Shown here: positions 18,583 to 50,933 of the stretch, one piece after another | How positions within the stretch are numbered: the first letter of the stretch is position 1 | How the letters are laid out: each line of letters opens with the position of its first letter | DNA from: an uncultured Clostridia bacterium | GTDB lineage: Bacteria; Acidobacteriota; Aminicenantia; UBA2199 | Assembly: GCA_964502145.1 (NCBI GenBank) | Contig: CAZCVI010000009.1 | Span: 73,438-137,437, forward strand | Length of the DNA stretch: 64,000 bases | Direction: 5' to 3' | Position numbers and translations under genes: made by a program | The notes under the pieces: generated by a model | Database searches by the model: none | What the model saw: the letters and a program-made list of their open reading frames with translations, nothing else | What the model was told of the DNA's origin: nothing

Positions 18583-20048
18583 GTCAAGTCATAACTTTTT
18601 ATTCTTTTAAAGGCGGTGTTGGTCGTACCATGGCGTTGGCTAACGTGGCAGTTCTATTGTCGCAATGGGGATATAAAACGTTAGTTGTTGACTGGGACCT
18701 GGAAGCACCTGGGCTGGAAAATTTCTTCAAAGAATATATCAATTTAGAAAAGATTTCCAAAAGAAAAGGCCTGATCGAATTGTTAAATCCCAAAGATGCA
18801 ACTGAAAAAAAATTTACCTGGAAGGACTTGCGGATTCCAGTATTCATTCCTGAAGGTCAGGAGCCCATTCACCTGCTCACTGCTGGCGACCGCAGCAACG
18901 GCTATTACGACAGAGTGAGAAATTTTGATATTGATCTGTTCTATAAAAAGCAGGACGGCGGGCAAAAGATTGAACAACTGCGGGAGGAATGGAAAGCAGA
19001 ATACGATTTCGTTCTGGTGGATAGCCGTACCGGTATTACCGACAATGGAGGTATTTGTACTATTCAACTCCCAGACATCCTTGTCTTGCTTTTTACCGCC
19101 ACGGACATAGGACTAAATGGGATATTGGATGTCGCTCAGCGGGCAGTTAAAGCCCAACAGTCACTCGCTTTCGAACGCTTTAAATTGCTAGCCCTGCCCG
19201 TTCCCACCCGCCTTGAAACCGCTCTTGAATTTAAACTATCGCAAGAGTGGATGAATAAATTTTCAAAAGAATTGGAGCCCCTCTATTATGATTGGCTACC
19301 AATCAATGTGGACCGTCTGCAATTCGTTGAATTAACTAAGATTCCTTCTGTTCCATATTTTAATTTCGGAGAAAAACTTCCGGTCATTGAACAGGGCGTC
19401 AACGATCCGGCTGGCCTGGGATATGCATACGAGACTATCACCGCCCTTCTGGCAAACAACTTCCAATCCATCCAAGACCTGATGAATAACCGTGATGCAT
19501 TCATCCATATGGCTGCCAGTAACCGGGGTACAATAATCAAAAGGAAATCCAATCCTAAAGTAACCAATCAACCAGTTAAAATTTTTATTTCCTATTCCCA
19601 TAAAGAAAAAGCGATTAAAAGTATACTGGAATATTATCTGGAAATACTTAAAACAAAAGGATTGGCCACCTTTTGGTCAGATGAAAAACTTTTGCCGGGT
19701 ATGAAGTGGTCTGAAGAGATTGAAAAGAATATCTCTGACTCCCAGGTTTTCTTAATTTTATTAAGTAAAAACTATCTCTCCCCTACCACTTCAGCGGAAT
19801 TGCAGCAAATAGAAAATTTTGGAAAACAAAAGAATATCCTGATAATTCCAATTGTACTCGACGATTCCACTTGGTATCAGGACACCTTTTTAAAAGATCG
19901 TTTTTCAATATGGATGGATTACGCGACAATAAATACCCATGTAAACTGGGAGGAGGCTCTTTTTGAAGTTGTTCAACAGATTGAAAAATCAATTCTTTTA
20001 TATCAACAACAAATCAATGAAACAAAACCTATAGGAGAAGTGAAATGA
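18579..20048 (+). CDS. Fusion protein: N-terminal MinD/ParA-like (SIMIBI) NTPase with a deviant Walker A, C-terminal TIR domain
   Basis: N-terminus FYSFKGGVGRTMALAN (P-loop Lys replaced by Arg), A' VVDWDLEAPGL, Walker B LVDSRTG. C-terminus VKIFISYSHKEK...FLILLSKNYLSPTTSAELQQ, typical of the bacterial TIR_2 family. ATGA overlap with the upstream TIR gene. Confidence 0.75.
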   Translation: MSQVITFYSFKGGVGRTMALANVAVLLSQWGYKTLVVDWDLEAPGLENFFKEYINLEKISKRKGLIELLNPKDATEKKFTWKDLRIPVFIPEGQEPIHLLTAGDRSNGYYDRVRNFDIDLFYKKQDGGQKIEQLREEWKAEYDFVLVDSRTGITDNGGICTIQLPDILVLLFTATDIGLNGILDVAQRAVKAQQSLAFERFKLLALPVPTRLETALEFKLSQEWMNKFSKELEPLYYDWLPINVDRLQFVELTKIPSVPYFNFGEKLPVIEQGVNDPAGLGYAYETITALLANNFQSIQDLMNNRDAFIHMAASNRGTIIKRKSNPKVTNQPVKIFISYSHKEKAIKSILEYYLEILKTKGLATFWSDEKLLPGMKWSEEIEKNISDSQVFLILLSKNYLSPTTSAELQQIENFGKQKNILIIPIVLDDSTWYQDTFLKDRFSIWMDYATINTHVNWEEALFEVVQQIEKSILLYQQQINETKPIGEVK

Positions 20049-21295: not shown

Positions 21296-21383
21296 TTGCC
21301 CACGAATTACACGAATGATCACGAATTTATCGGAAAAAAAACGTTTATTTCCTTTTAATTCGTGACAATTCGTGGAATTCGGT
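21296..21383. repeat. Palindromic element built from CACGAATNN sub-repeats
   Basis: CCCACGAATTACACGAATGATCACGAATT, loop, AATTCGTGACAATTCGTGGAATTCGG. Confidence 0.6.
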
Positions 21384-21960: not shown

Positions 21961-22553
21961 CACTGTCGAGATGGACACTATACCGTGAAGCCAAGCAGGA
22001 AAGTTAACGGAGGAGCAGATACTCCGATTTTTTTGACGTACCTGTGACCGAAGTGACCGCTTTTCTGAGCGCGCAACTGGCAGAAGGAAATCCTTTTTAT
22101 GTCAGTTCTATCTTATGTTCCCAATTCCCAGACAAAGATTTAACCACTTTGGAAGGATTGGTGCGCACCCTGGAATTTGAAACCTTAAACGATAACGGGG
22201 AGATCAAATCTACCTGGATGACTTATGTGAATTCGGCCTTCAACCAAGTTAACAATAAAATTTCCAAGAATATTGTGTTGTATTTATGTAAAAATAGAGA
22301 CCATGAGGTCACCCGCAAAGAGTTATTGGAAAAATTACATCTGGATATGACGGATGGCGAATTAGAGTTCAAACTCAAAGCTCTAATAAAAGCCGATATT
22401 ATCCTCCAAGGAGCGACCAACTACGATTACCACGGGAAGTGGAAGACTTCCTTCGTGAAAAAAGTATCGCCTATACGGAAGATGAACGCTGGTTGGAGCT
22501 TTAAAGGTTTTTTAACCACAGATTACACAGATTCAAATGATTTCCCAGATTAA
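21961..22553 (+). pseudogene. Decayed paralog of the Arch_ATPase/DUF234 gene at 48996-50756: N-terminal P-loop half missing, internal deletion, frameshifts
   Basis: RYSDFFDVPVTEVTAFLSAQLAEGNPFYVSSIL...LYLCKNRDHEVTRKELLEKLHLDMTDGELEFKLKALIKADII aligns with KYSGFFNVPVTEETAYLIAQMAEGSPFYISSIL...LYLCQNRDHEVTRQELLDNLALDMTDRELELKLKALVRADII of the intact gene. After NYDYHG the frame jumps to ...SIAYTEDERWLEL*, which matches the intact C-terminus GIAYSEDERWLEN*. Confidence 0.75.
22516..22552. repeat. Half-copy of the CACAGATTA repeat element
   Basis: CCACAGATTACACAGATTCAAATGATTTCCCAGATTA is nearly identical to the left arm of the palindrome at 50834-50933. Confidence 0.6.
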
Positions 22554-30453: not shown

Positions 30454-32719
30454 CCCTCCCCAAACGATTTTTACTGATCTTTAAATCTTCTTTTGAAGAA
30501 AAAAAGCTTCCCCCTTTTAATATATTCCCTTTCACCCACTCCCAAACATTGCCGGCCATATTAACGACATTAAAAGGAGAGGCAAAGGCCTCGAAACTTT
30601 TAACGGGTGCGGTGCCGCTGTACCCGTCTTTTTCCACGGATTCTTCGAGGGAGTCAAAGTTGGCACGCCAGATCCCCCCGGCGTCAGGCAACTCTTCACC
30701 CCAGGGATACGTGGTATCTCCTTTCCCAGCGACATATTCCCATTCCTCAAGCCTGGGCAAACGGAACCCATATTGCTTGTTGTACTTTTCAGCCTCAGCA
30801 TACCACACAACAACGGGGAACTCGTCCTCATTGCGGATGAATTTACTGTTTTTTTTGGTTGGTCGGCTGATATTTAGGGCTTTCAGGAACCGCCGGTATT
30901 GTGCATTGGATACTTCATACTTATCGATCCAGAAATTTTTCTCCGGGATATACATCATGTGATGGAAATTACGATCCTCACCGAAGGTGTATTCATAATA
31001 TCCCTTTTTATTTTTAACAATGGCACCGTCCCAGTACTTTTCGGGGGGTAAGCGGCGTTCTGTCCTGGTTAATTGTTCTTTTAGCTGGTTGAGATAAATA
31101 GAATCGGGGTAGTTGCGTTTAAAATCGAGATAAGCATTCAGAGTCACGGTGTCTTTGATATTTTGGTAAATCGTTTTGCCGTTTTGTTTTTCAAAATCCC
31201 GGCGTTTTTGTTCCAGGGTTTGTGCCAGTTGTTTAATTTCCTCGTTCTCCGGCCCCATTAATGCGCTGGCTTTTTTTAATTGAAGGGAAGCGGCCTCGTA
31301 ATCATTGGCATTGATTTGCAGGGCGGCGGCGTCGATAGCAACACGGAATTCCTGTTGGGTCCGAATGGTTGTATCGAGTGTTTCCATGGTTTTAGCCAGG
31401 TTCTTCAGTATCTCTTTGCCCATGGGGTCCTTTTCCATATCGCGATAGCTATAGCGGAATTGGCGGCATCTTTTTTGTTTTTCAATGTCTTGGGCTTGGC
31501 TGGCCAGGAATAAACCAAGCTCAGCATATGTTTTTTGCATCTCCGCCAGACGCACGGGTCCTGGTTGCGATTCGGAAAGGGGGTCCACCTGGGAATTTTT
31601 TTTGTCAGGGGGCAGGGGCGGAGTAGTGATAGGGTGACCCTGGGTCTTTGCTATTTTTATATCTGGCGCGAATTCTTTTCCAACTCTTTTCCCAGAATCA
31701 CCTGAAAAGGGTTGGAAGATCAAGGTGGCACCGATCAGGATACATATCAAAATGCTGGCATACACTGCCCAAAGTGGTAAGCGTCGTTTCACAGAGCGGG
31801 GAATTTTTTTGATGACGTGAATTTCCCGCAAAGCTTCCCTGAATTCGAGGGCGGATTTATAGCGATGGGTTGGAGCTTTGGCCATGGCAGTGGCCAGGAT
31901 TAGGTCGGTTCCGGGTGGTAAGACTGGATTTTTAGCACACACGGAGGGCACAGGTTGACTGCGGTGGGCATTCATCACCTCGATAAAATTCCCTCCTTTA
32001 AAGGGGGTATCCCCGGTCAGCATTTCAAACAACACGACGCCAAAGGAATAAATATCCAGGGCAGGCCCTACATTACTACTGTCCAGAAATTGTTCGGGAG
32101 CCATATAGGCGGGGGAACCGAGGAGGGCACCGGTGGTAGTTAACTTGGTGCCGCCAACAATGTCCTTGGCAATACCAAAATCAATGATAACGGCTTCACC
32201 GGTAGCTTCGCGGATCATGATGTTAGAGGCTTTGATGTCCCGGTGGATAATATTGCAGCTATGCATGGCTTCCAATGCTTCCAAGACGTTATTGGAGATA
32301 TCTATGGCCTGACTAATATCTATAGGGGCGTTATGCTTGATGAATTCAGCGAGATTCTCGCCCCGGATATAACTCATGATAAAATAGGGTATTTCGATAT
32401 CCTCTATGGGATCGGCCAGAACGCCCGTATCGTAGATTTCAACAATACTGGGATGATTGATTTTCTCATAAAGCCGGGCTTCAGAAATAAAACGCCGTTT
32501 GATTTCATTGAATTTGGGTTTCACATCGGAGAGATTTTGTTTCTTTAATCGTTGCAACAGATAGTGATAATCGAGTATTTTTAAGGCCCGGTCCTCGCCA
32601 GTGGGGGTATATTTCATCAGGTAGACATTGGAATATTCACCGCCCCCCAAGTGTTTGGTGAGTTTATAGCTACCGCTTAATTCATGCAAAATGGCATCTA
32701 AAATAGTATCCTTCTCCAC
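30401..32719 (-). CDS. Ser/Thr protein kinase fused to an FGE-sulfatase (SUMF1-like) domain
   Basis: Kinase motifs GGGEYSNVY, HRDIKASN, DFG, APE. A TM segment follows. C-terminus RLPRLEEWEY...NVWEWV...GGSFFS matches the FGE-sulfatase domain. Confidence 0.85.
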   Translation of the reverse strand: MEKDTILDAILHELSGSYKLTKHLGGGEYSNVYLMKYTPTGEDRALKILDYHYLLQRLKKQNLSDVKPKFNEIKRRFISEARLYEKINHPSIVEIYDTGVLADPIEDIEIPYFIMSYIRGENLAEFIKHNAPIDISQAIDISNNVLEALEAMHSCNIIHRDIKASNIMIREATGEAVIIDFGIAKDIVGGTKLTTTGALLGSPAYMAPEQFLDSSNVGPALDIYSFGVVLFEMLTGDTPFKGGNFIEVMNAHRSQPVPSVCAKNPVLPPGTDLILATAMAKAPTHRYKSALEFREALREIHVIKKIPRSVKRRLPLWAVYASILICILIGATLIFQPFSGDSGKRVGKEFAPDIKIAKTQGHPITTPPLPPDKKNSQVDPLSESQPGPVRLAEMQKTYAELGLFLASQAQDIEKQKRCRQFRYSYRDMEKDPMGKEILKNLAKTMETLDTTIRTQQEFRVAIDAAALQINANDYEAASLQLKKASALMGPENEEIKQLAQTLEQKRRDFEKQNGKTIYQNIKDTVTLNAYLDFKRNYPDSIYLNQLKEQLTRTERRLPPEKYWDGAIVKNKKGYYEYTFGEDRNFHHMMYIPEKNFWIDKYEVSNAQYRRFLKALNISRPTKKNSKFIRNEDEFPVVVWYAEAEKYNKQYGFRLPRLEEWEYVAGKGDTTYPWGEELPDAGGIWRANFDSLEESVEKDGYSGTAPVKSFEAFASPFNVVNMAGNVWEWVKGNILKGGSFFSSKEDLKISKNRLGRDEDEEGFRCIKEENPGS

Positions 32720-32832
32720 AGTCGTTTTATTACTCCAGCACGTAATATTGAATTTTAAGACATTGTCCAGTTTTTTTCAAGTAGGTAAGGGTAAAAATAA
32801 ATAAATCCCAACGTTTTGTTATTATATTATTA

Positions 32833-34287
32833 CTATTCGGGGTCCTTCATTTTGCTACGCAGGGCGCTACGGGTAAGTCCCAGATATTGGGCGGTTTTTG
32901 TTTTATTGCCGTCAAACCGTTGCAATACCTTTTGCACGATCTCATCCTCCAGAGCTTTAAGATCGAGTTTATCGGGTGGTAATTTGATTTTCCCTGGTTC
33001 CAACACGCAGGTTTCCACCATCATGGGTTCCATCGGGTTATGTCCGGAGCTTAAAAACTGGAGGTGTTCAGGCCGGATTTCGAAATCATCATAGAGCAGA
33101 ATCACGCGTTCGATAGTATTTTGAAGTTGGCGAATATTTCCGGGCCAGGGAAACTGTTCGAGGGTGGTGATGGTCTCGCGGTGCAAGAAGCGGAATTTAC
33201 GGTTCTTTTTTTCTGCATACTTGAAAAGAAACAACTGGGCAAGGGGTGCGATGGCTTCTTTACGTTCGCGTAGGGGCGGCACAAACACGTAACCGACATT
33301 CATGCGATAATAGAGGTCCTCGCGGAAGCGTCCTTCCTTGACTTTTTGGCTCAAGTCCTGGTTGGTGGCGCACACCACACGGATATCAAGGTTGATCTTC
33401 TTTAAGCCACCGACGCGGTAGATGGCTCTTTCTTCAAGTACGCGGAGTAATTTGGGTTGGATTTCCAAGGGTAGATCGCCGATTTCATCTAAAAATATGG
33501 TGCCGCCTTGGGCAAGTTCGAATTTACCGATCGCACCTTTCTTTTTGGCGTCGGTGAATGCGCCTTCCTCGTAGCCGAACAATTCTGTTTCAAAAAGATT
33601 GCCGGGAATAGCGGAGCAGTTGATAGAAATAAAAGGGGTGGTGATATCACCATTGCCATAGTGGATCATGCGGGCTACGACTTCTTTGCCAGTGCCGGTT
33701 TCACCTTCAATGAGTATGGGAATAGCGCGGTCCTGGTGTAGTTTGACCACAAGGTCGCGGATTTCGCGCATCTTGGCCGAATAAATCCCGATGTCTCCCA
33801 GCCCAACGATTTTACTATAGGCGCTCTGGATGCGCTCATATTTTTCGCGTACCTCGGTGGTGGCTTGATAGAGTTTTTGGTCGAAGTGTTTTTTCAGGTC
33901 GGTATTTTCTTTGAGCAGGGAGATATGTTCTTGGACGCGGAGAACTATGGAAGCCAATTCTTCGACATCAATGGGTTTGAGCAAATAATCATAGGCCCCG
34001 GCGCGCATGGCCTGGATGGCAGAATCCATGTTCCCATAACCGGTAATCAATACTATATCGGTAAAGCGACTTTGCGGCAATCCAGTGATATAGCGGGAGA
34101 GTTCGATACCGTTAATGCCGGGCAGACGAATATCAGAAATGACAAGGGGAAAAGGATTGTCCTGATATAATTTTAATGCCTCGCTACCATTATCACAACG
34201 TGTGACATCATGGCCCAACTGGTGGGTTAAAAAACCGTATATGGCTTGCAAACTGAGTTCTTCATCATCAATTAACAAAATTCTCAT
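32833..34287 (-). CDS. Sigma-54-dependent response regulator (NtrC family)
   Basis: Receiver domain plus AAA+ sigma-54 activator core ([14 protein letters not shown]) and C-terminal HTH. Confidence 0.9.
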
Positions 34288-36352
34288 GGCTGGTATCCTT
34301 GGTTACTGGACTAACTGGACCTATAACTGGAGCTTTTTTTGTGTCATGTTTGGGGGGATTATTTTTTGCATAGAGGGGGAATCTTAAGGTGAAGCGGGCG
34401 CCGACGATGTTATCATCGACTTTCTGGTTGGCGGCATGGATTGTACCGTTGTAACGGTCCACATATTGCTTGACAATAGCGAGTCCCAAACCCATGCCCT
34501 CGCCACCACTGTTGGTGGAAAAGAAGGGGTCCCAGAGTTTTTCAATACTTTCATGGGGGAGTCCGGGGCCGTTGTCGCAAATGACCAAGACGACGTGGTC
34601 GTTGTCCATGGACGTAATCAGTTCGATCTTTTTTTGAACCTGTTTTTTTCCTTTTAGGGCATTAGCAGCATTAACCACGATGTTAACAATAATTTGTTCG
34701 AAATGAATCAGGTTCCCCTGTACCATCAAGGGGTTGGTTGAGGTGCTTAAATATTCTTGGATTCCGTGGTCATGGAGTTGCTGGTGAATAAGGGAGAGGG
34801 CATTGGCCACGGCGACATTAATATCTACAGCGACGATGGCAGGAGAATCGGGGACGACCCAGAAGGCGCGCATGTTCTGGATAATTTCCACGATCCGTTT
34901 AACGGATTTAGAGATGAGGTTTAATTGCTCAATAAAGGGTTCGGGGAGTGCGTTGGGGTTTCGTTTTTGCCAGTATTGGATACTGTCAGCGGTCACTTTA
35001 ATAGCATTGAGGGGTTGGTTGATCTCGTGGGTAATACCGGCGGCCATCACGCCGATAGAAGCAAGTCTGGCAGATTGTTCCACTTGTTTGATGGCGGAAA
35101 TCTGTTTTTTTTCCGCTATTTCTCGGGCCTGACACTCTGTTTCCAATGCTTGTTGCGCCAGTTTATGTTCTTCGATTTCGAGGTTTAATTTGCGGTTGGT
35201 TTCGCGAAGTTCAGCGGTGGCTTCATGAACGGTTTCTTCAAGGTGTTTACGATACTGTCGTAACTCGGTTTCGGCGCGTTTGTGAAAGAAAATCATCAAA
35301 AAGGTAACCAGTCCCATAAACACAAGCAGCATAAAAACAATCTTTTTTTTCTGCCGATTCACGGCATTAAAAGTGTTGGAAATGTCTTTCAGTATAAAAA
35401 CACCGCCTACTTTGCGACCCATGGCATCATAAAAGGGAAACACGCCCCGGACAAAGCGTGTGTCCCCCACGGAGATCATGCCCAGCACCAACCCTTCGTC
35501 AGGGATAGTGGATAGATTATCCAGATTCTTTTGCAATAATTCGGTCTGGGAAGCGATACTGGTGGAGGTGACCAGCAGGTGATGGGTCATATCGTCCCAG
35601 TTGTCCCGCGCCCCTTTTACAGTGACCACGGACATCCAGTCAGCGCGATTGAGATATTTTTTTTCGATCAACAAGCCGTATTCGTGCCCGGTTTGTTTCT
35701 TTAAGTGCCTGAAGAGGTATGCCATTTCAACTCCCAGTTCAATATAACCGATGAGTTGAGTTTTGTGGTAAAAGGGATGGACGGCACGTAAGGCCAGGGC
35801 GGTTTTACCCAGTTCGCTACCAGTAGCCAGTTGCCCGGTACTGATACACTTTTGCAAGGTAAACCGCATGTTTTTATCATTGCGGAAGCCAGGGTTATGA
35901 ACGCGTAAAAAACAGGTTTGGTCTGGTTCGGGAGTAATAAAATACCAGTGGGTAATCCCATTTTGTAACTTGAGATGTTGATAGATAGGCCGGGTGAATT
36001 GATACAACTGCTCGCCATCCCGCATATAAAACAACTCGCCAATAGTCTGATTGGACACCAAACCTTCCAAAGTAGCGGACAACATGTTAACGGTGTTCCG
36101 TTCAAGTTCTTTAAATGCGACGGCGGAATTTTCGATGGTGTTCCGGGTCATAAAATCGACGTTGCTGGTATTGGATATGTTAAATATAATTAAAACACCG
36201 GTAACGCTTATGCCTGCAAGACCAAGAATAAAAAAAATGGCCCGGTAAACAAAAACGAAACGCCTGAGCTTCTTATTACGACTTGTATTATACGTTTCCT
36301 CTATTAAACTTTTCACGCTATATATAATAAGGAAACGGACGACGATTGTCAA
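34268..36352 (-). CDS. Sensor histidine kinase, cognate to the NtrC-like regulator
   Basis: TM segments, sensing region, coiled coil, H-box HEINQPLN, HATPase_c (DNGPGL...GMGLGLAIV). Confidence 0.85.
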   Translation of the reverse strand: MTIVVRFLIIYSVKSLIEETYNTSRNKKLRRFVFVYRAIFFILGLAGISVTGVLIIFNISNTSNVDFMTRNTIENSAVAFKELERNTVNMLSATLEGLVSNQTIGELFYMRDGEQLYQFTRPIYQHLKLQNGITHWYFITPEPDQTCFLRVHNPGFRNDKNMRFTLQKCISTGQLATGSELGKTALALRAVHPFYHKTQLIGYIELGVEMAYLFRHLKKQTGHEYGLLIEKKYLNRADWMSVVTVKGARDNWDDMTHHLLVTSTSIASQTELLQKNLDNLSTIPDEGLVLGMISVGDTRFVRGVFPFYDAMGRKVGGVFILKDISNTFNAVNRQKKKIVFMLLVFMGLVTFLMIFFHKRAETELRQYRKHLEETVHEATAELRETNRKLNLEIEEHKLAQQALETECQAREIAEKKQISAIKQVEQSARLASIGVMAAGITHEINQPLNAIKVTADSIQYWQKRNPNALPEPFIEQLNLISKSVKRIVEIIQNMRAFWVVPDSPAIVAVDINVAVANALSLIHQQLHDHGIQEYLSTSTNPLMVQGNLIHFEQIIVNIVVNAANALKGKKQVQKKIELITSMDNDHVVLVICDNGPGLPHESIEKLWDPFFSTNSGGEGMGLGLAIVKQYVDRYNGTIHAANQKVDDNIVGARFTLRFPLYAKNNPPKHDTKKAPVIGPVSPVTKDTSHENFVN

Positions 36353-36371
36353 CCTTTTTTCTTAACCTAAA

Positions 36372-36530
36372 TTCACCGCCAAGTTTCAGAAAAAACTGGA
36401 CTATCTGGACATACTGGACATTCTGGACTTACTGGACTTCACAAAAGCTTTGATTTTTCCAGCTTGTCCAGTATGTCCAGCGTGCCACGGTTATCTGTGG
36501 CTCTTTTAAAAATGATGGTGAATCCAGGTT
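36372..36530. repeat. TGGAC 9-nt-period palindromic repeat element
   Basis: Leader ATTCACCGCCAAGTTTCAGAAA. Five CTGGACNNN units, a loop, then GTCCAGTATGTCCAG. Tail GATGGTGAATCCAGG. Confidence 0.7.
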
Positions 36531-36626
36531 AACTGGGGGAAAAATAGCGGGTGGGCCACATGACCGACCCCGCCATCCACGCTATTCATGAATCAGTCTA
36601 ACCCAAGACCTCACCTTCCCCCCTAT

Positions 36627-36808
36627 TTGGTCATCAGAGCGCCACAAATAACCAACGATCACACTATTTGGCAAAAAAACGCCGTCATAGGTCAATGATG
36701 GCCTAAAAATGCTCTCGTTTCACTAAAAATGGTGAGCAATGACCAAAATGGACCGATTTTTTCAGCAAATGAACCCATTTTCAGATAAAAGGTCATCCAT
36801 TGACCAAA
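36627..36808. promoter_or_regulatory. Cluster of GGTCA-N4-5-TGACC inverted-repeat sites (candidate operators)
   Basis: AGGTCAATGATGGCC at 36689, GGTGAGCAATGACC at 36731 and GGTCATCCATTGACC at 36791, plus a half-site TTGGTCATCAG at 36627. Lies in the 1.2-kb intergenic region upstream of the minus-strand histidine-kinase gene. Confidence 0.4.
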
Positions 36809-36862
36809 AAACATCATCAGAGTCCAAAAAACTCCTCACTTCTCCTCAAACTGTCAATGGTG

Positions 36863-37021
36863 CAGAAAATTACTCAATCAATTGAGAAAATTACTGTTAT
36901 GTTCGAGAATTTTTCAATAATATTACAGTAATTTTCTATTATATTTGAGAAAATTACTTGAATCACAAAGTAAATTACTGAATCATTCGAGTTATTTTCT
37001 TACTGATTTGAGAAAATTACT
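36863..37021. repeat. ~60-bp tandem repeat array with conserved core TTGAGAAAATTACT (three to four copies)
   Basis: Cores at 36882, 36944 and 37008, a variant at 36863, and an inverted copy AGTAATTTTCT at ~36929. Spacers share TTCGAG and ATTACT. Confidence 0.6.
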
Positions 37022-37512
37022 GCAACCCTAGCCTTATATCGTCATGGATGACGTGATGGCTGAAAATGGCACGCTTTTTTGTTATTTATGGCATGAATAG
37101 GTCTATTTATCACCGTTATTACTGGCGAATTCAGAAATTTCCGAATCCGTGACCTGCCTACGACAAAATTGCCGATCAATATTCAACTATTTGCTTCTAT
37201 CGCTTAAAAACCACTTTATTCATGCTCTTGCGACCCACCAGGGGCAATGGGCAGCACCAAGATGAAATTATGCCCTAAGTGGGCGAATTTTCCCCAATAA
37301 CGGTCATTCTTCATTTTCTCAGAAATATCACTCTATTTAAATATAAAGCCTTTATTCTCAGCATCTTTTCTCCATTATGAAAGTATGCCATAAAAAGAGC
37401 AGAGGAAAAAGCAAAAGAGCCTCCCTAAATTCACTCCCAATACTTTAAATGACTATTAAACAATATGGGAAGAATGGGAGAGCGGGGGATAGGCAGCGCC
37501 CCAAAGAGCACT

Positions 37513-37543
37513 AGGATCAACTCCCGTTGATCCTAGTGTCTTT
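37513..37543 (-). terminator. Perfect 13-bp stem hairpin immediately downstream of the S8 protease gene
   Basis: CACTAGGATCAAC / TCCC loop / GTTGATCCTAGTG. T-tracts on both sides are modest. Confidence 0.45.
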
Positions 37544-37560
37544 AGGATTGTATTACTGTT

Positions 37561-40500
37561 TTATTTAAACTTCGGTGTTATTTTTATTTCTACAACTACT
37601 TTTTGTGGCGTATCGTGGGTACTTTCACGGATAAACTCCAGGCGATACTTGCCCAGAAAGCCAGCACCGGGTTGCCAATAAAAGATTCCCCGCTGACTAT
37701 CCAAGGTAGAACCTATAGGTAATGAAGACAACGCAGTCACACTGACCACACTACCTTCAACCGGGGCAAAATGCATCTCCACCCGTTCCAACTCTTTGAT
37801 TTCCGTGGTTACCACACCATCCACATCCGGGGCAATGGGTTTTAATTCCGTATCCTGACGATAACCCCGGCTCACTCTCACCGGCGTGACAGAATCGACG
37901 GGAAAAAGAGACATATCCCGCTCAACAGTGGATTCACCCGAATGAGAATTCATCTGAGTGACAGCAGTATCGCTTCGGCCATGAATGTTTTGAATAGTGA
38001 AATAGCGACTACCAATACCATCTGAATCCCCACCACTATCTGTAGCTGTCCACTGGATGGTGTGAATCCCGTTCTTATACGTCGTGGTATTCAACGTGCG
38101 CACGCCAACTGCACCATTGCTGTTGGCATAACCGGGGAAAAGGGTTGCTATATCTGACCGATAGAGATTGTAAGTGGGATGACCCAGATTGACACCGTCT
38201 ACCCAAACATCAATTTTGGAACCATTGGTAGCTATGGAATGGGGTTGCGGGGTTAACACCCAGCCCCAGTTGGCAAAACTGGAACCTGCCGCTGTTCCAC
38301 CCTGGGCAGGAGTATCCAGCGCACCAAAGGGTTTGACTGCACTGTTATTGGTCAGGTTTATGGTCTTGGAACCGAGTGAAACCTGATTGCCCTCAGCATC
38401 GGTAGCCACGGCATACAATGTATAATACCCATTCCCACCACCGGGTAAGAAGTAGGTCAGAAGCATGTACCCCCAACCGGCTTTATAACTCTTCGGATGA
38501 GTGGGATAAGCAGCGGCGACATCGGGTCGCGAACCTTCCACAAAAACGGCATCGCCAACATAATCTGGGCCATTGTATATCTTCACACTGACAACTTCAA
38601 TATCATCCAAGGCCCATCCAGTCACGGGAATACTGCCATTACCAGTAGAACCATCCAGCGGGGTGGCAAATTCACCAAAAGGCACGGTATTTACGCCCCA
38701 GTTAGACACGGTCAGGTCAACGGAAATAGTTCGCGGGGTATTAGAGGCCCCGGAAGCACTCACGGTGATTTTACCACTATAACTTCCCGCTGCCAAACCA
38801 GTCGGATTGGCTGTTACGGTCAGTACTCCAGACTGCGAGCCAGACGCGGGACTGACACTCAACCAGGAGGAATCAGACACGGTAGTCCACGTTAATGTAC
38901 CAGCACCACTGTTGTCGATCAATATGGTTTGCGCGGTAGTCACAGTATTGTCGACACGGGCACCAAAATTAAGCTGGGTGCGACCCAGATTGATTTTCGG
39001 CGGGGTGGATGAGATAATACTGAACACGGCGTTGGAAGTATCCGTGGGACTGCTATCAGAAGCCTCGCTGACCCTCACCAAACAGGTCGAGGACGTGGTG
39101 GCGGGCAGGGTCCAGGGATGGGTAGCATCATTGGGGGTACTGGCCACGATTACTGTCCAATTGCTGCCATTGTTGGTGGAATATTCGATTTTTACGTTCC
39201 CCACGGCATTGGTCGTGCTCCAGGTAATATTGTGGGCAGAGCTTGTCACCCAGCTCTCACCGCCATTGGGAGAGGTCACGGCAATGGTGGGTGTAGTGGA
39301 CGTGATAATTGAAAAAACAGCATTCGAAGCATCGCTGGGACTTCCATCGGAAGCTTCACTGATCTTGATTTTGCATTGGGCTGATGCGGAATTGGGCACA
39401 GTCCAGGTAAAGGAACCATCATTGGATGTGGATGAAGTCACTGTAGACCAACTACTGCCGTTATTGCTGGAGTATTGGATTTTAACATTGCCCACGGTGC
39501 CACTGCTCGTCCAGGTAATATTTCGGGAAGAGTTTATCGTCCAACTCTCCGCACCATTCGGTGCAGTCACGGTGATGGAACTGGACCCACCCAATAATTG
39601 GGTGATAGCCGCGCCCACATCAATTCGGGGCACAGTTCCAGTGCCACAAACGCTGCTGACCGCTTTGCCAGTACTACGTAACGCATTGTAAATATCCGTG
39701 ACACTCGCGGAAGATTTGGCTTGCCTCAGTAACGCCCAGGCACCCGTGACATGGGGGGTGGCCATGGAGGTTCCGTCCCACGATTTATAGCTGGAATTGC
39801 TTTCGCCGATGGAGGAATAAACGGAAACGCCCGGCGCGAACAGTTCGGTCAGGGTGCGGTGCCAGTTATTAAAAGAGGCTTCAGAATCGCTGTCTGTCGT
39901 GGCCCCTACGGCCACCGCCGAAGAGATACAGCTAGGAGAACCGACATAACCACAGTACCCGTTATTACCGGTGGCAATACAGGTGGCGATATTAGCCGAT
40001 TTCAGATTATCAATGGCCGCTTTCTGAATGGCGCTATCGCAATAGGCGCTATAAGAACCCCCGCCTAAACTCATATTAACCGCGCCAATACTGTAGGAAC
40101 CACGCAACGTATAGATATATTCCAAACCGGCTACCTGATCTGAATTATAGGACATGACGCACAGGTCACCATCGCAATCTTCGGTACCAAAACGGGAGAA
40201 TACCTGTACGGCGATAATATTGCTGTTTTTAGCCACGCCAGTTAAGCTGCCATAGTTCCCAGTGGCAATACCAGCTACATGGGTACCATGATCATAACCA
40301 TCGTATGAACTTTCATAATGCGCGGCAGACCCGGTGCCAGTCATGGATGTACTGCCGTTAGGGCAATCGCTAAGAGCTGAAAAACAGGCTTCCTTGATCG
40401 TTTTTCCGGTGAAAAACTGGTGCGTGCGCAAGATGCCCGTGTCCAAAATAGCCACATACCAACCACTACCCGTGTAACCCATGGTCCACGCATCATCGGC

Positions 40501-41070
40501 GCCGATTACTTTCACCGTGTTGCTCAACATGGTGCGACTTAAATTATCGTTGTTTGTGGGGGTAGTTTTGACCAATGGCTGCTTGAATAGTTGCGCGTCA
40601 GATAAATCATCGGCCAGTTTCACCGGTTTATCCTCGACGATTTCCAGCACATTGGGAAGGGTCGCTATAAATGACATGGCTTGGGGTGAGACATCCAAGG
40701 CCAAGTAAGGTAATGTTCGATAAGTATGGTTGATCCGGTAATCCAAACCGTTCAAACTATGCAGTACTGTAGAAGTCACTGCTTCGATGGCATTGGCCAA
40801 CGCCAAGTCCGCATCAATTCCAGCCTGCGGAAATACAATGCCAGGTTCTATCGTCCCAAACTGGGTGGACGCTGCGGTTAATTGGTTTATACCCGGTACA
40901 TCTAACTTAACGATCACTTTGGTATAACCTTGTGCCGCTACCGGTGTGTCCACGGCAGAAGAGATGATGGGGATACATAAGATAGCCATGAATAATAACC
41001 ACACAGAATAATGGCCGATTTTGTGCAGCACTTTTTTGTTTTTAACAGGCAAATTGCATCTGCTCCTCAA
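37561..41070 (-). CDS. Secreted subtilisin-like serine protease (peptidase S8) with multiple Ig-like repeats and a conserved C-terminal module
   Basis: Catalytic-triad motifs DTGI (Asp), HGTHVAGIA (His), GTSMATPHVTGAWALL (Ser). Signal peptide. Repeated ~90-aa domains TVTAPNGAESW...ITWTSSGTVGNVKIQYSSNNGSSW. Confidence 0.85.
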   Translation of the reverse strand: MRSRCNLPVKNKKVLHKIGHYSVWLLFMAILCIPIISSAVDTPVAAQGYTKVIVKLDVPGINQLTAASTQFGTIEPGIVFPQAGIDADLALANAIEAVTSTVLHSLNGLDYRINHTYRTLPYLALDVSPQAMSFIATLPNVLEIVEDKPVKLADDLSDAQLFKQPLVKTTPTNNDNLSRTMLSNTVKVIGADDAWTMGYTGSGWYVAILDTGILRTHQFFTGKTIKEACFSALSDCPNGSTSMTGTGSAAHYESSYDGYDHGTHVAGIATGNYGSLTGVAKNSNIIAVQVFSRFGTEDCDGDLCVMSYNSDQVAGLEYIYTLRGSYSIGAVNMSLGGGSYSAYCDSAIQKAAIDNLKSANIATCIATGNNGYCGYVGSPSCISSAVAVGATTDSDSEASFNNWHRTLTELFAPGVSVYSSIGESNSSYKSWDGTSMATPHVTGAWALLRQAKSSASVTDIYNALRSTGKAVSSVCGTGTVPRIDVGAAITQLLGGSSSITVTAPNGAESWTINSSRNITWTSSGTVGNVKIQYSSNNGSSWSTVTSSTSNDGSFTWTVPNSASAQCKIKISEASDGSPSDASNAVFSIITSTTPTIAVTSPNGGESWVTSSAHNITWSTTNAVGNVKIEYSTNNGSNWTVIVASTPNDATHPWTLPATTSSTCLVRVSEASDSSPTDTSNAVFSIISSTPPKINLGRTQLNFGARVDNTVTTAQTILIDNSGAGTLTWTTVSDSSWLSVSPASGSQSGVLTVTANPTGLAAGSYSGKITVSASGASNTPRTISVDLTVSNWGVNTVPFGEFATPLDGSTGNGSIPVTGWALDDIEVVSVKIYNGPDYVGDAVFVEGSRPDVAAAYPTHPKSYKAGWGYMLLTYFLPGGGNGYYTLYAVATDAEGNQVSLGSKTINLTNNSAVKPFGALDTPAQGGTAAGSSFANWGWVLTPQPHSIATNGSKIDVWVDGVNLGHPTYNLYRSDIATLFPGYANSNGAVGVRTLNTTTYKNGIHTIQWTATDSGGDSDGIGSRYFTIQNIHGRSDTAVTQMNSHSGESTVERDMSLFPVDSVTPVRVSRGYRQDTELKPIAPDVDGVVTTEIKELERVEMHFAPVEGSVVSVTALSSLPIGSTLDSQRGIFYWQPGAGFLGKYRLEFIRESTHDTPQKVVVEIKITPKFK

Positions 41071-41195
41071 TTTTTCCTCCGATCTTTAGTATTTTATATT
41101 TCTGAAAGGAACTACACCTTTCAATTAATTCAAAAAAAGTTTAGCACATTTTCAAAGGAAATTCAACTGGGAAATTTAAGATGGATGCACAGCCA

Positions 41196-41305
41196 ACTTC
41201 TTGAAATCGTTATGGACTATATGGACTATATGGACGAAATGGACGTTATGGACGAAATGGACGTTCTGGACAAAAGAGGCTATTCGTCCAGATCGTCCAT
41301 ACGGC
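41196..41305. repeat. TGGAC 9-nt-period palindromic repeat element
   Basis: CTTGAAATCGT leader, then ATGGACTAT ATGGACTAT ATGGACGAA ATGGACGTT ATGGACGAA ATGGACGTT CTGGAC, loop, CGTCCAGATCGTCCAT. Lies between the two protease genes. Confidence 0.7.
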
Positions 41306-41306
41306 T

Positions 41307-44300
41307 TTAAAATTTAGGGACTATGTTTATTACTACACTCACTTTCTGCGGCTGACCATCGGCCCCCTGGCGGGCAAACATTAGGGTGTACTTACCTAAA
41401 AAGCCAGGGCCGGGCTGCCAGTAAAAGATGCCTTTATCTCTATCCACGGTAGAACCGACGGGCAAAGGAGAAATCGCCTCCACCGGACCCTGGCTCCGCA
41501 AACGTATTTCTACCCGTTCGTCCTCTTTGATCTCTAACGCGAAAACACCATCAGACGCAGGGAGAATCTCTTGGGGTTCAACATCCTCGCGGTAACCGCG
41601 TAACAGACCGATGGCAACGGTGGTATCTTTCTGCAATTCACGATGACTGGCACTGAAATCCAACGTGGCGGAAGTTTCTGCGTGGCGGCTACTGGCATTA
41701 TAAATCGAGAAATAGCGACTGCCGATTCCATCCGTATTACCAGCGGTGTCTTTGGCTGTCCACTGGATAGTGTGAATGCCATTGGCATAGGTGGTGGTAT
41801 TGAGGGTACGATACCCGACAGCACCATTACTGTTGGCATAACCGGGGAAAAGTGTCGCAATATCAGAGCGATACAAATTATAAATGGGATGTCCGAGATT
41901 CACGCCATCTACCCAGACATCAATCGTGCTGCCATTGGTTGCAATCGAATTGGGCTGCGGGGTTAATACCCAGCCCCAGTTCAGAAAACTTGAACCTGAA
42001 GCCGAACCACCCTGTAGCGGCGTATCAATGGCGCCAAAAGGTTTGACTGCACTGCTGTTGGCCACGGTAATAGTTTTGAAACCCAGGGAGAGTTGATGGC
42101 CCTCGGCATCGGTAGCAATGGCATATAAGGTATACTCACCATTCCCACCACCGGGTAAGAAATTTGTCAAAAGCATGTACCCCCACCCGGCCTGGTAATT
42201 TTTAGGGAAACCAGGATAAGCGCCTTCCACATCGGGTCGAGCGCCTTCAACAAATACGGCATCGCCAATGTAAGCGGCTCCATTGTATATTTTCACGCTG
42301 ACCACTTCAATATCATCCAATACCCAGCCGGTCACCGGAATGCTGCCCATGGCAATAGTGCCGTTTACCGGGGTGGAAAATTCACCGAAGGGCTGGGTTG
42401 TAGTTCCTGAATTAATCATGGTCAGGTTAACGGTGATGGTTTGCGGGGAATTGGTAGCCCCGTTCGCACTAACAGTGATAGTGCCGACATCCATCCCAGC
42501 GGAGAGGACAGTAGGAACAACGGAAACAGAAAGTATCCCGGACTGGGTCCCAGACGCGGGACTGACGTGCAACCAGGATGCATTGGAACTAGCGCTCCAC
42601 GTCAATGTACCACCACCACTGTTGCCGATTAATACAGTTTGCGTGGAAGTTTTTGCGCCACCTGTATCCGCACCAAAATAAAGCTGGGTGCGGTCCAGTT
42701 TAATTTTAGATGGAGTTGGAGAGCTGGAAGAGATAGTGAAAACACTATTGGAACTATCAACGGGACTGCCATCGGAGGCTTCACTAACCCTTACTTTGCA
42801 AGTAGTAGACGTGGTGGAAGGCAGGGTCCAAGAATGGGAACCATCATTGGCGGTAGCTGCGATTATTGGGGTCCAACTACTGCTGTTATTAATGGAGTAT
42901 TCGATTTTTATATTGCCCACTGAGCCAGTAGTGCTCCAGGTAATGTTATGGGTAGAACTTGTGAGCCAATTTTCACCACCATTGGGAGAGGTCACGGTAA
43001 TAGTTGGGGAAGAAGAAGTGGTGATGGTAAAAGCAGCATTGGAAGAATCAGTAGGACTGCTATCGGCTGCTTCGCTGATCCGTACTTTACAAGTCGCGGA
43101 AGCAGCATTGGGGACAGTCCAGGAATAGGAACCGTCATTGCCTGTGGTATTGATTGCCGTGGTCCAATTACTGCCATTATTCGTGGTGTATTCAATTTTT
43201 ACATCTCCCACGGTGCCGCTAGTACTCCAAGTAATGTATTGGGTGGAACCCACTGCCCAACTTTCACCACCATTGGGAGAGGTCACGGTGATAGTTGGAG
43301 TAGGAGTACTGCCCGATACCCTAAAATTAGCCACGGTGGAGGCGGTATTGTTTAAAGCCCGGCGATTATCTGCGGCCAAGGGGTCGGAATATAATACACC
43401 CATGGGTTGTCCCCCATAGGTTTTATCTGGGTTTGACCAATAATTCACACGGGTACAACCCGGAGTAGCGCAATTGTAAGCCATAATCGTGCGGAATGCT
43501 TTATCTGGGGCTTGGTAGCCATACGCATAAGAATAAGCGCCCTGACCACCCCCGGTATTGGCACGGTCATGATGACAGCCCATGTTATGGCCCAACTCGT
43601 GGGCAAAAGAGTAATACCCCGTGGCACAGGTCAAAGATACCAGTGCAAATGCATCGGAGGCAAAAGAGGTGCTCACGGTAGTCATTAGGTACGCTAATCC
43701 GCAATAGCCGGTGTCATTGACCAGCAACACGACCTCGTCAGCAACGTAGGTATTACGCAAAGTATGAACTTCATCCATATACCCGTCCGCTGTGCCTTGC
43801 AGTCTATCCAGAGTGGCGCTCCAGTTAAAACTGGTTTCGCTGTAATCGACTTCTGCCGAATGGACCAGCCTGATCCGTTGGGAGACGCCGCTGTTGCTGT
43901 ATCCCGCATTGGATTCGGTAACTGCCAGGGTGATCAAGGTTTGCATGGCGCTGGTGCCACCCGCCGCAGCACGGGCCGCTTGGTCATACACTACCAGCAC
44001 GTCAATAGTGTCGCCACTGTCCGCCACCACGCCGTCTAGAACTGGCTCTTTTGTAACCATGGCCAAGGTTTGATGGTTGATTTTTTCCGTGTCTGTTAGC
44101 GCGCACGATGGAAATTTGGAGTGATCTATTTCGTGGATAGCATGAATACCATCGCTGATATACCGGATCTCATAAAAGGCATCAGGCAAAGAAATATTTC
44201 CCGACATAATACCATCTTTATAGACCAGGATCACTTGGCCATAATTTATTCCGTCAATAGTTCCAATCCATGAGAAACGGCCCCCATCATCAATTTCCAA

Positions 44301-50833: not shown

Positions 50834-50933
50834 GTCCACAGATTACACAGATTAAAATGATTATCACAGATTTTTTTTTAAAAAACTTTTTTAATCATGT
50901 TAATCCATGGAATCTGTGTAATCTGTGGATATC
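50834..50933. repeat. Palindromic element built from CACAGATTA sub-repeats
   Basis: TCCACAGATTACACAGATTAAAATGATTATCACAGATT, a T/A loop, then AATCATGTTAATCCATGGAATCTGTGTAATCTGTGGA. Confidence 0.65.

What the first reader, a model, noticed from the sequence alone, without database searches (positions are those of the whole stretch)
36531..37560. 1.2-kb intergenic region packed with operator-like palindromes and 60-bp tandem repeats
The region between the histidine-kinase start (36352) and the S8 protease stop (37561) holds several elements. There are three GGTCA-N4-5-TGACC inverted repeats within 120 bp (36689, 36731, 36791) plus a half-site. There are three to four ~60-bp tandem units with core TTGAGAAAATTACT (36863-37021) and an inverted core copy. 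There is a perfect 14-bp palindrome CGTCATGGATGACG (37040-37053), a near-match to a sigma-54 -24/-12 element (TGGCACGCTTTTTTGT at ~37066, imperfect), and a 13-bp perfect-stem hairpin (37509-37538). This density of symmetric sites suggests a heavily regulated promoter for the NtrC-partner kinase operon, iteron-like arrays, or an sRNA locus. The repeats are too short and irregular for a CRISPR array.
Basis: seen in the sequence. Interest (0 to 1): 0.55.

Follow-up and report, generated by a model that had tools for sequence, protein, structure and literature searches.

The report
Phased repeat arrays in an intergenic spacer

Summary
The repeats are real but were partly misdescribed. The "~60-bp units" are eight 21-bp units in exact register (36859-37026). 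Each carries the dyad-symmetric core AGWAAWTTWCT, and there is a weaker 63-bp super-period. Eight further A-tract units with a ~20-bp period extend the array leftward (36705-36858). This stretch has the strongest helical phasing in the 64-kb window. The sigma-54 match lacks the -12 GC. The 13-bp hairpin sits 23 nt after the protease stop codon and is probably its terminator.

Both ends of the spacer carry copies of a dispersed module. It has a hairpin and/or 9-bp tandem repeats (a full inverted pair only at the kinase end), then the box TTGGCGGTGAATTTAGG, then 13-14 nt to a -35 hexamer. At least six copies occur in the window.

No Rfam family, tRNA, DnaA box, plasmid or phage similarity was found. 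Related Aminicenantes loci have no such spacer. Similar 21-bp arrays occur elsewhere next to unrelated housekeeping genes.

Best reading: a lineage-specific, DNA-level protein-binding array, not an operon-specific switch. The binding protein and its function are unknown. Interest is moderate.

The parts
36324..36352 (-). Sigma-70-type promoter of the histidine-kinase/NtrC-like operon: TTGACA, 17 nt, TATTAT. The probable GTG start codon is at 36316.
   Evidence: 11 of 12 matches to the consensus. The same TTGACAAT...TATTAT arrangement lies upstream of the orthologous kinases in L007 and L008.
36366..36382 (-). Promoter-proximal box TTGGCGGTGAATTTAGG, ending 13 nt upstream of the -35 hexamer.
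   Evidence: The same box occurs 13-14 nt upstream of a -35-like hexamer at 7490(+), 10962(-), 16883(+), 41196(-, degenerate) and 37440(-).
36396..36480 (.). 9-bp-period palindrome: CTGGACnnn x5 (36396-36437), an AT-rich loop, then GTCCAG x3 (36458-36480). On the minus strand the hairpin is followed by TTTTTT (36395..36390).
   Evidence: (D3, I3). The whole element 36355-36540 folds at -77.1 kcal/mol, z = -11.4.
36508..36532 (.). Distal inverted copy of the box (GGTGAATCCAGGTTAA). It closes the roughly 170-bp palindromic module 36362-36532.
   Evidence: I5: 36362-36386 / 36508-36532, 25 nt, 76% complementary.
36705..36858 (.). Eight degenerate A-tract units with a ~20-bp period (AAAATGG... type). 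They contain the imperfect GGTCA..TGACC palindromes at 36731 and 36791. The one at 36690-36703 lies just outside this span.
   Evidence: lags 20, 61 and 81, z 4-6; A-tracts every 19.5-21 bp.
36775..36800 (.). Left arm of the 26-nt inverted repeat that brackets the 21-bp array.
   Evidence: I4; 21 of 26 complementary; maximum over 200 shuffles is 19. In the single-strand fold these arms close the structure.
36859..37026 (.). Eight 21-bp units in exact register. Each has the dyad-symmetric core AGWAAWTTWCT. A 63-bp super-period is centred on units 3 and 6.
37044..37069 (.). Right arm of the 26-nt inverted repeat.
   Evidence: plus direct reading.
37066..37081 (+). Sigma-54-like string TGGCACGCTTTTTTGT. 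It is judged non-functional because it has no -12 GC.
   Evidence: It is a variant of the repeated unit AAAATGGACCGATTTTTT (36745) / AAAATGGCACGCTTTTTT (37063), family D7.
37382..37440 (-). Second copy of the box (TTGGGAGTGAATTTAGG, 37440..37424). It is followed by 13 nt, TTTTTC, 17 nt and CATACT. This is a weak promoter-like site that points into the spacer.
   Evidence: It was not called by the consensus promoter scan.
37465..37491 (.). Three 9-bp units (ATGGGAAGA, ATGGGAGAG, CGGGGGATA) belonging to the second module.
   Evidence: Direct reading. The same TGGGA/TCCCA 9-bp units occur at 56846-56893.
37509..37538 (-). 13-bp perfect-stem hairpin 23 nt downstream of the S8 protease stop codon. 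It is the probable transcription terminator or 3' stabiliser, although its U-tract (CUCUUUGGGG) is weak.
   Evidence: (I17).

Best explanation
The spacer is a lineage-specific, non-coding 'repeat island' that works at the DNA level. Its core (about 36705-37026, bracketed by the 26-nt inverted repeat 36775-36800 / 37044-37069) is a helically phased array. It consists of eight dyad-symmetric 11-bp sites (AGWAAWTTWCT) spaced exactly two helical turns apart, extended by eight phased A-tract units.

Inferred mechanism: a dimeric DNA-binding protein occupies the eight sites on one face of an intrinsically curved segment. It oligomerises cooperatively into a wrapped or filament-like nucleoprotein complex. 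In this it resembles iteron, centromere and multi-operator arrays.

The array sits between two copies of a dispersed intergenic 'punctuation' module. Each module has a hairpin and/or 9-bp arrays, then the box TTGGCGGTGAATTTAGG, then 13-14 nt, then a -35 hexamer. One copy follows the protease gene. The other, with its T-run, insulates and precedes the kinase promoter.

The anatomy and statistics are shown. Protein binding, DNA curvature and any effect on transcription are inferred. The array is not a dedicated switch for the kinase/NtrC operon.
For: - Register: all eight units are in exact 21-bp register with no indel, yet the spacers between cores are only 37% identical while the cores are 79% identical. 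The variable core positions change only between A and T.
- Site density: 6 perfect sites lie here against about 0.25 expected in 64 kb.
- Periodicity: this is the only stretch in the window with z > 6 at any lag from 6 to 63.
- Helical phasing: A/T-tract phasing at 10-11 bp and 20-21.5 bp over 36640-37020 is the top outlier in the window, z about 9 (tract positions).
- Bracketing repeat: the flanking inverted repeat exceeds all 200 shuffles.
- No coding capacity, no Rfam family and no tRNA.
- Module: at least six copies occur in the window, with a constant box-to-(-35) spacing but unrelated intervening sequence, and always downstream of a co-oriented gene. The copies at 16790-16899 and 10946-11106 are clearly homologous.
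- Similar arrays elsewhere: exact-21-bp arrays with AGAAAnTTTCT / AGTAAnTTACT cores and more variable spacers occur in other metagenome contigs (L045, L055, L101, L107, L082, L106, L029). L107 also carries 9-bp arrays and CCTAAATT/GGTGAAT boxes in the same spacer.
Against: - No binding protein can be named. No regulator gene adjoins the array in this window or in the other loci.
- Only one such array occurs in 64 kb, and no close relative exists for phylogenetic footprinting. The best kinase homologue is 62% identical.
- Core-versus-spacer conservation in the other loci is partly an ascertainment effect, because they were found with the core pattern.
- Tandem arrays can expand and homogenise without any host function.
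- Curvature is inferred from A-tract phasing only.
- Most of the roughly 120 hits of the metagenome scan are single pairs of sites and probably arise by chance.
Confidence: 0.45

Rival explanations
1. Selfish or neutral repeat DNA. Under this reading the 295-bp unit bounded by the 26-nt inverted repeat is a MITE-like or satellite element. Its internal 21/63-bp repeats would have expanded by slippage or unequal recombination and would have no host function.
For: - The unit has terminal inverted repeats, and as a single strand it folds into one closed structure (z = -5.5).
- The 63-bp super-period suggests duplication of three-unit blocks.
- The spacer is absent from related genomes.
- Short-read assemblies of the same species break at or next to the arrays (L005 at 36393, L010 at 37092, L268 and L266 at other arrays).
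- Similar arrays elsewhere sit next to unrelated genes.
Against: - No second copy occurs in the 64-kb window.
- No target-site duplication is visible.
- The spacers have diverged to about background identity, yet the register has no indel and the cores stay conserved. That pattern argues for constraint rather than neutral decay.
- An independent assembly is 100% identical over 36366-37560.
Confidence: 0.25
2. A non-coding RNA or small-ORF transcription unit. The second module (box 37440..37424 with a weak promoter) would start a minus-strand transcript of about 0.9 kb. That transcript would run through the arrays and end at the 9-bp palindrome plus U-run (36480..36390). The repeats would act as RNA motifs, or the unit would be the remnant of a decayed gene.
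For: - In the other copies the box is followed by a promoter and a gene. Here it is followed by TTTTTC-17-CATACT.
- A GGAG-preceded 17-codon ORF is then coupled by an ATGA overlap to a 32-codon ORF (37311-37391 and 37216-37314, minus strand).
- The palindrome 36396-36480 is followed by U6 on the minus strand.
Against: - The promoter is weak and was not called by the scan.
- There is no Rfam match.
- Dyad symmetry of the cores and phasing at the DNA helical repeat are properties of duplex recognition, not of RNA motifs.
- No homologues are available to test ORF or structure conservation.
Confidence: 0.12
3. One reading: an enhancer (UAS) array for the adjacent NtrC-like activator, driving a sigma-54 promoter at 37066 or regulating the kinase operon.
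For: - An NtrC-type sigma-54 activator with a Fis-type HTH domain is encoded about 2.6 kb away.
- Such activators bind dyad-symmetric sites spaced by whole helical turns. This is established knowledge for NtrC and DctD, not tested here.
- TGGCACG lies 40 bp from the end of the array.
Against: - The -12 GC is missing, and no acceptable GG-N10-GC site exists in the spacer.
- A plus-strand promoter at 37066 would have no gene to drive, because the next 500 bp end at the tail of the convergent protease gene.
- Orthologous kinase/NtrC operons have no arrays.
- Similar arrays elsewhere are not next to sigma-54 activators.
Confidence: 0.06
4. Replication-origin iterons or a partition centromere of a plasmid or an integrated element.
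For: 21-22-bp phased repeats and bent DNA are typical of iteron origins and of parC-type centromeres. This is established knowledge, not tested here.
Against: - No rep or par gene lies next to the array, and the flanking genes are ordinary chromosomal genes.
- No DnaA box occurs in the spacer.
- No similarity to 72,556 plasmids or 50,697 phages goes beyond short AT-rich matches.
- The local cumulative GC skew peaks here rather than dipping.
Confidence: 0.03

Closest known systems
Iteron arrays and multi-site centromeres/operators, for example plasmid iterons with 19-22-bp spacing, parC of R1 and pSK41 (10-20-bp repeats wrapped by ParR), and ARG boxes spaced 21 bp apart for hexameric ArgR. These examples are from my own knowledge and were not tested here.
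   Same: Several short sites sit in exact helical register on one face of the DNA. The cores are conserved, the spacers are free, and phased A-tracts lie adjacent.
   Different: No rep, par or arg gene and no cognate binding-protein gene lies nearby. The location is chromosomal, between a protease gene and a two-component operon. The core sequence AGWAAWTTWCT matches no operator that I could find.
The 'putative global regulator binding sites' (classes 1-3) of Geobacter metallireducens, described by Aklujkar et al. 2009 (PMC2700814).
   Same: These are intergenic and multicopy. Each site is 3-5 tandem repeats of 7-9 nt, and sites are paired on opposite strands with a variable gap. Their function is unknown, and the authors guessed IHF/HU-type binding. 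This is the same architecture as the 9-bp CTGGAC/GTCCAG palindrome at 36396-36480 and its relatives at 10977, 16790 and 41211.
   Different: The repeat sequences and the phylum differ. The Geobacter sites are not reported to have the conserved box at a fixed distance from a -35 hexamer, nor the terminal inverted repeat CCTAAATYCACC...GGTGAATYYAGG.
REP/BIME elements and MITEs, that is, dispersed palindromic intergenic repeats. This comparison is from my own knowledge.
   Same: They are short, palindromic, intergenic, multicopy and lineage-specific, and they often lie just after stop codons, where they can act as terminators or mRNA stabilisers.
   Different: No RAYT or transposase link and no target-site duplications were seen. 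The internal 9-bp tandem arrays and the fixed spacing to a promoter are unusual for these elements.
Intrinsically curved upstream DNA made of phased A-tracts. This comparison is from my own knowledge.
   Same: A/T tracts repeat at about 10.5 and 21 bp over about 330 bp.
   Different: The stretch is unusually long and lies 350-700 bp from the nearest convincing promoter. It is also combined with eight specific dyad sites.

Membership tests
Sigma-54 promoter | A -24 GG and a -12 GC separated by exactly 10 nt (TGGCACG-N4-TTGCW). | tested here: not met
   The site at 37066-37081 has TG at the GC position. No site with 3 or fewer mismatches that keeps both GG and GC lies in 36353-37560.
Enhancer (UAS) of a bacterial sigma-54 activator | Dyad sites 70-200 bp upstream of a sigma-54 promoter, bound by the cognate activator. 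| tested here: not met
   Dyad sites are present, but there is no sigma-54 promoter. Orthologous operons lack the sites. Binding itself cannot be tested with these tools.
Plasmid/phage iteron origin | Tandem 17-22-bp repeats next to a rep gene, with an AT-rich unwinding element and DnaA boxes. | tested here: not met
   The repeats are present, but there is no rep gene, no DnaA box in the spacer, and no plasmid or phage similarity.
Partition centromere (parC/parS-type array) | A repeat array immediately next to a parA/parB or parM/parR operon. | tested here: not met
   The flanking genes are an S8 protease and a histidine kinase. The nearest ParA-like genes are more than 16 kb away and are fused or adjacent to TIR-domain genes.
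CRISPR array | Repeats of 23-55 bp separated by unique spacers of similar length. | tested here: not met
   The unit is an 11-bp core plus a 10-bp spacer.
Any Rfam RNA family | A score at or above the family's gathering threshold. | tested here: not met
   There were 0 hits at gathering thresholds in the whole window. In 36200-37700 the only sub-threshold hits are chance matches to eukaryotic or plastid families.
Intrinsic terminator (hairpin 37509-37538) | A stable GC-containing hairpin just after a stop codon, followed by a U-tract. | tested here: inconclusive
   The hairpin is strong (-34.6 kcal/mol, z = -6.5) and lies 23 nt after the stop codon. The tail, CUCUUUGGGG, is U-poor, and the consensus scan did not call it.
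MITE / REP-like dispersed element (the 9-bp-array module) | Multiple copies in one genome, terminal inverted repeats and target-site duplications. | tested here: inconclusive
   There are at least six copies in 64 kb with terminal inverted repeats. No target-site duplication was seen. The fixed 13-14-nt spacing to a -35 hexamer fits a positioned binding site as well as it fits targeted insertion.
MITE-like element (the 21-bp-array unit 36775-37069) | Multiple copies in one genome, terminal inverted repeats and target-site duplications. | tested here: inconclusive
   The inverted repeat is significant, but there is only one copy in the window and no duplication. The rest of the genome could not be reached.
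Geobacter-type paired tandem short repeats (PMC2700814) | 3-5 tandem repeats of 7-9 nt, paired in inverted orientation, intergenic and multicopy. | tested here: met
   The site 36396-36480 has 5 + 3 copies. Relatives are at 10977-11074, 16790-16872 and 41211-41300. This is a structural analogy only; there is no sequence homology.
Phased A-tract curved DNA | A/T tracts repeated at the helical period over several turns, with anomalous gel mobility. | tested here: met
   The phasing is the strongest in the window (z about 9). Physical curvature cannot be tested with these tools.

The most novel reading that the evidence does not exclude
Two novel readings remain open.

First, the exact-21-bp arrays of AGWAAWTTWCT-type dyads may form an undescribed, phylogenetically scattered class of chromosomal 'iteron-like' platforms. 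They were seen here, in a contig whose transporter gene is 80% identical to one from a Syntrophales MAG (L101), in a contig carrying the cyanobacterial-type palindrome GCGATCGC (L045), and in others. An unknown nucleoid-associated or regulatory protein would bind them.

Second, the module of 9-bp array, box and promoter may be a mobile or templated terminator-promoter cassette that punctuates co-oriented genes in this lineage.
Probability: 0.2. Interest if true: 0.7.

Novelty: new variant of a known kind. Interest (0 to 1): 0.4.

Why it matters
If the array is a real protein-binding platform, it would point to an unknown abundant DNA-binding or chromosome-organising protein in Aminicenantes. 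No member of this group has been cultured.

It would also give a concrete, synthesisable 330-bp bait for finding that protein.

The recurrent module (hairpin or 9-bp arrays, then the box, then a fixed 13-14 nt to a -35 hexamer) would be a useful landmark for annotating promoters and terminators in these genomes. It would extend an unexplained observation made in Geobacter in 2009.

If the repeats turn out to be merely selfish, the finding matters mainly as a cause of assembly breaks and of spurious small-ORF calls. One example is the 41-aa 'gene' called across the GGTCA sites in the JGI contig.

Tried and rejected
- Known RNA or tRNA: the Rfam scans (gathering thresholds on the whole window; E-value mode on the spacer) and ARAGORN found nothing.
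- Sigma-54 promoter: rejected.
- oriC or iteron origin: no DnaA boxes, no rep or par genes, and no plasmid or phage similarity.
- Phylogenetic footprinting failed. The only contigs with near-identical genes are the same species: L004 is identical to the window, and L009 is identical over 36366-37560. The nearest kinase and protease homologues are 56-62% identical and have neither the spacer nor the arrays.
- Viral-contig scans were uninformative. The box hits occur at about the chance rate and lie in coding DNA. The TGGAC-N4 pattern hit more than 120 contigs, but I did not inspect them and only suspect collagen-like coding repeats.
- A shared neighbouring gene: an all-against-all BLASTP of ORFs near 16 arrays found no common flanking protein. 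The one cross-hit was L101's Ig-domain protein against the C-terminal part of the window's S8 protease, and it has a different position relative to the array.
- The 21-bp periodicity in L272 is a coding heptad repeat and is unrelated.
- Literature searches for the core sequence and for 21-bp repeats gave nothing relevant.
- Extending to more of the same genome failed, because other assemblies' contigs end near the window's ends.
Full report
**Setting**

The window matches metagenome contigs from lake or sediment-type samples. JGI 3300020048 Ga0207193_1000105 is identical over 22833-44287, and ENA and Logan contigs of the same species also match.

The organism is probably a divergent member of the Aminicenantes/Acidobacteriota. 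The best named full-length homologues of its S8 protease and of its histidine kinase come from such MAGs, at 56-59% identity.

The spacer lies between two co-oriented minus-strand units:
- An S8 protease gene with BACON/Ig domains, whose stop codon is at 37561.
- A dCache histidine-kinase / NtrC-type sigma-54 activator operon.

The kinase ORF's nominal TTG 'start' at 36352 is actually the -35 hexamer of a good sigma-70-type promoter: TTGACA, 17 nt, TATTAT, at 36352..36324. The likely start codon is the GTG at 36316, just ahead of an N-terminal membrane helix (direct reading). The same TTGACAAT...TATTAT promoter precedes the orthologous kinases in L007 and L008.

**Checking the observation**

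- *Tandem units.* The '60-bp units' are eight 21-bp units in perfect register (36859-37026). Each is centred on AGWAAWTTWCT, an 11-bp dyad. Six cores are perfect, one has 1 mismatch and one has 2. Only one other perfect site exists in 64 kb, and about 0.25 are expected. Core positions are 79% identical between units and spacer positions 37%. The three variable core positions switch only between A and T.
- *Super-period.* Half-site orientation alternates so that units 2-3-4 and 5-6-7 form 63-bp super-palindromes. The stretch is the only one in the window with autocorrelation z > 6 at any lag from 6 to 63.
- *GGTCA sites.* To the left, eight degenerate units of about 20 bp, each starting with an A-tract (36705-36858), continue the phasing. 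Two of the three GGTCA..TGACC 'operators' lie inside these units and the third (36690-36703) just to their left. Only one of the three is perfect.
- *Helical phasing.* A/T-tract periodicity at 10-11 and 20-21.5 bp across 36640-37020 is the strongest in the window (z about 9).
- *Bracketing inverted repeat.* A 26-nt inverted repeat (36775-36800 / 37044-37069, 21 of 26 complementary) brackets the array and exceeds all 200 shuffles. That palindrome is really CGTCAT-GG-ATGACG, with 6-bp arms.
- *Sigma-54 string.* It lacks the -12 GC. It is a variant of the recurring AAAATGGnCnG-T-run unit (D7).
- *Hairpin.* The 13-bp hairpin (z = -6.5) lies 23 nt after the protease stop codon.

Just outside the stated coordinates lies a palindromic element of about 170 bp (36362-36532). 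It folds at -77 kcal/mol with z = -11. Read in the direction of the kinase gene, it contains:
1. CCTGGATTCACC
2. 3 x CTGGACnnn
3. a loop
4. 5 x GTCCAGnnn
5. TTTTTT
6. TTGGCGGTGAATTTAGG
7. 13 nt
8. the -35 hexamer

The same architecture recurs upstream of the S8 protease (41188-41320), of the genes starting at 17022 and at 10585, and, as the box alone, of the gene starting at 7648. The box-to-(-35) spacing is 13, 14, 13, 13 and 13 nt, while the intervening sequence is unrelated. Each copy follows a co-oriented upstream gene. Two copies (16790-16899 and 10946-11106) are plainly homologous.

A further copy lies at the other end of the spacer, directly after the protease terminator hairpin. It has three TCCCA-type 9-bp units, then TTGGGAGTGAATTTAGG (37440..37424), 13 nt, TTTTTC, 17 nt and CATACT.

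The spacer is therefore delimited by two copies of one dispersed 'punctuation' module. The downstream genes share no function: they encode a methyltransferase, a PQQ-like protein, an ATPase, a protease and a kinase.

The closest published parallel is the set of paired, inverted 7-9-nt tandem repeats that Aklujkar et al. catalogued in Geobacter metallireducens. They called them putative binding sites of unidentified global regulators, possibly IHF/HU (PMC2700814).

**Comparative evidence**

- No genome close enough for footprinting exists in the collections. The next kinase homologue is 62% identical.
- In more distant Aminicenantes, the kinase operon has a 330-600-bp upstream region without arrays or boxes.
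- In those genomes the S8 protease gene is followed within 3-70 bp by the next gene. The spacer is therefore lineage-specific.
- One strain variant (L009) diverges from the window exactly at the outer edge of the proximal box (36365/36366). It is otherwise identical through 37560.
- A pattern scan of metagenome contigs found many exact-21-bp arrays with AGAAAnTTTCT or AGTAAnTTACT cores. They lie in intergenic DNA next to carB and to genes for an aldo-keto reductase, a HAD hydrolase, a sodium:solute symporter, a PLP enzyme, L21, an amylase and FabF.
- One of these contigs carries the cyanobacterial-type palindrome GCGATCGC (L045; my inference). Another has a transporter 80% identical to one from a Syntrophales MAG (L101).
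- L107 combines a 21-bp array, 9-bp arrays, CCTAAATT/GGTGAAT boxes and a terminator in one long spacer, as this window does. L101, L082 and L055 also have 8-9-bp arrays beside their 21-bp arrays.
- No protein family is shared among the neighbours of these arrays.
- These loci were found with the core pattern, so they show that the architecture recurs. They do not show that it is homologous.

**Interpretation**

Four properties point to duplex DNA read by a dimeric protein that binds cooperatively on one helical face, probably on intrinsically curved DNA:
- dyad-symmetric cores;
- a register of exactly two helical turns, kept without a single indel while the spacers have randomised;
- variation restricted to A/T at three core positions;
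- phased A-tracts.

This is how iteron, centromere and multi-operator arrays work. I therefore file it as working like those arrays, with confidence 0.45. Membership in any of those families fails, because no rep, par or cognate regulator gene, DnaA box or sigma-54 promoter is present.

The main rival is a selfish or neutral inverted-repeat-bounded satellite (0.25). It is favoured by lineage specificity, the flanking inverted repeat, the 63-bp block structure and assembly breaks at the arrays. It is disfavoured by the conservation pattern and by the single copy in 64 kb.

A minus-strand non-coding or small-ORF transcript running from the second module to the 9-bp palindrome plus U-run remains possible (0.12).

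**Verdict**

The features are real, statistically solid and structurally unusual. However, they belong to a known kind: phased multi-site DNA arrays plus dispersed palindromic intergenic modules. There is no identifiable partner protein and no experimental handle in an uncultured organism. Interest is moderate (0.4), and the novelty class is a new variant of a known kind.

Noticed in passing
window 10946-11106, 16790-16899, 41188-41320, 36362-36532, 7490-7506, 37424-37491: A dispersed module: inverted 9-bp tandem arrays (TGGAC-type cores), then ATTTCWGAAA, then the box TTGGCGGTGRATTTAGG, then 13-14 nt, then a -35 hexamer. Every copy follows a co-oriented upstream gene. It looks like a terminator-promoter 'punctuation' cassette. 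Structurally it is analogous to the Geobacter metallireducens paired tandem-repeat sites (PMC2700814).
   Followed up: partly
window 21301-21380, 22517-22552, 50837-50927, 56846-56990: Further 9-10-bp inverted tandem arrays with other cores: CACGAATTA, CACAGATTA and TCCCA/TCCCC. The array at 56846 is followed by a GGAGGTCA...TGACCTCC hairpin and by CCTAATTTAGG / GGTGAATTCC box-like sequences upstream of the promoter of the gene starting at 57060.
   Followed up: partly
L009 10688-10725 versus window 36328-36365: In the ENA assembly ERZ27262925 the sequence departs from the window exactly at the outer edge of the proximal box (36365/36366). The companion contig L006 stops at 36293. This suggests a strain-level insertion or replacement in the kinase promoter region.
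   Followed up: partly
L005 end (window 36393), L010 end (37092), L268 end (about 10983), L266 end (about 56.9 kb): Short-read (Logan) contigs of the same species end at or next to the repeat arrays. The arrays are therefore either repeated elsewhere in the genome or polymorphic in the population.
   Followed up: no
window 5271-7483 and 17974-20048: Two possible defence-type gene pairs. The first is a SLFN/AlbA_2 + HATPase_c_4 protein next to a CbiA/ParA-like ATPase. The second is a TIR-domain protein next to a ParA-like-ATPase-TIR fusion.
   Followed up: no
window 27805-36352; L008 7001-15416: The gene order kinase, NtrC-like activator, Ser/Thr-kinase-FGE-sulfatase fusion, Big_7 protein is conserved in a distant relative (L008). 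The upstream side is not conserved.
   Followed up: partly
L004 7471-7596 (= window 36692-36817, minus strand): The JGI annotation calls a 41-aa gene across the GGTCA/A-tract repeats. It has no Pfam hit on record and is probably a spurious call.
   Followed up: partly
L107 1556-1730 (minus strand): A small ORF next to L107's 21-bp array reads like a double-glycine-leader peptide: ...LNDREMSNVKGG | WDTVIVCESYFVCSQPEQSCIPPKPK. It is a possible bacteriocin or RiPP precursor.
   Followed up: no
L272 4480-4790: A 21-bp periodic stretch in an Aminicenantes MAG turns out to be a coding heptad repeat in a 133-aa ORF. It sits among several small XRE-family HTH genes upstream of the S8 protease orthologue and is unrelated to the dyad arrays.
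   Followed up: partly
L101 3467-5761 versus window 37561-41052: In L101, the Ig-domain protein gene that starts about 95 bp from the 21-bp array is 53% identical over 380 aa to the C-terminal part of the window's S8 protease. This could be coincidence or a weak link between such arrays and secreted Big-domain protein genes.
   Followed up: no
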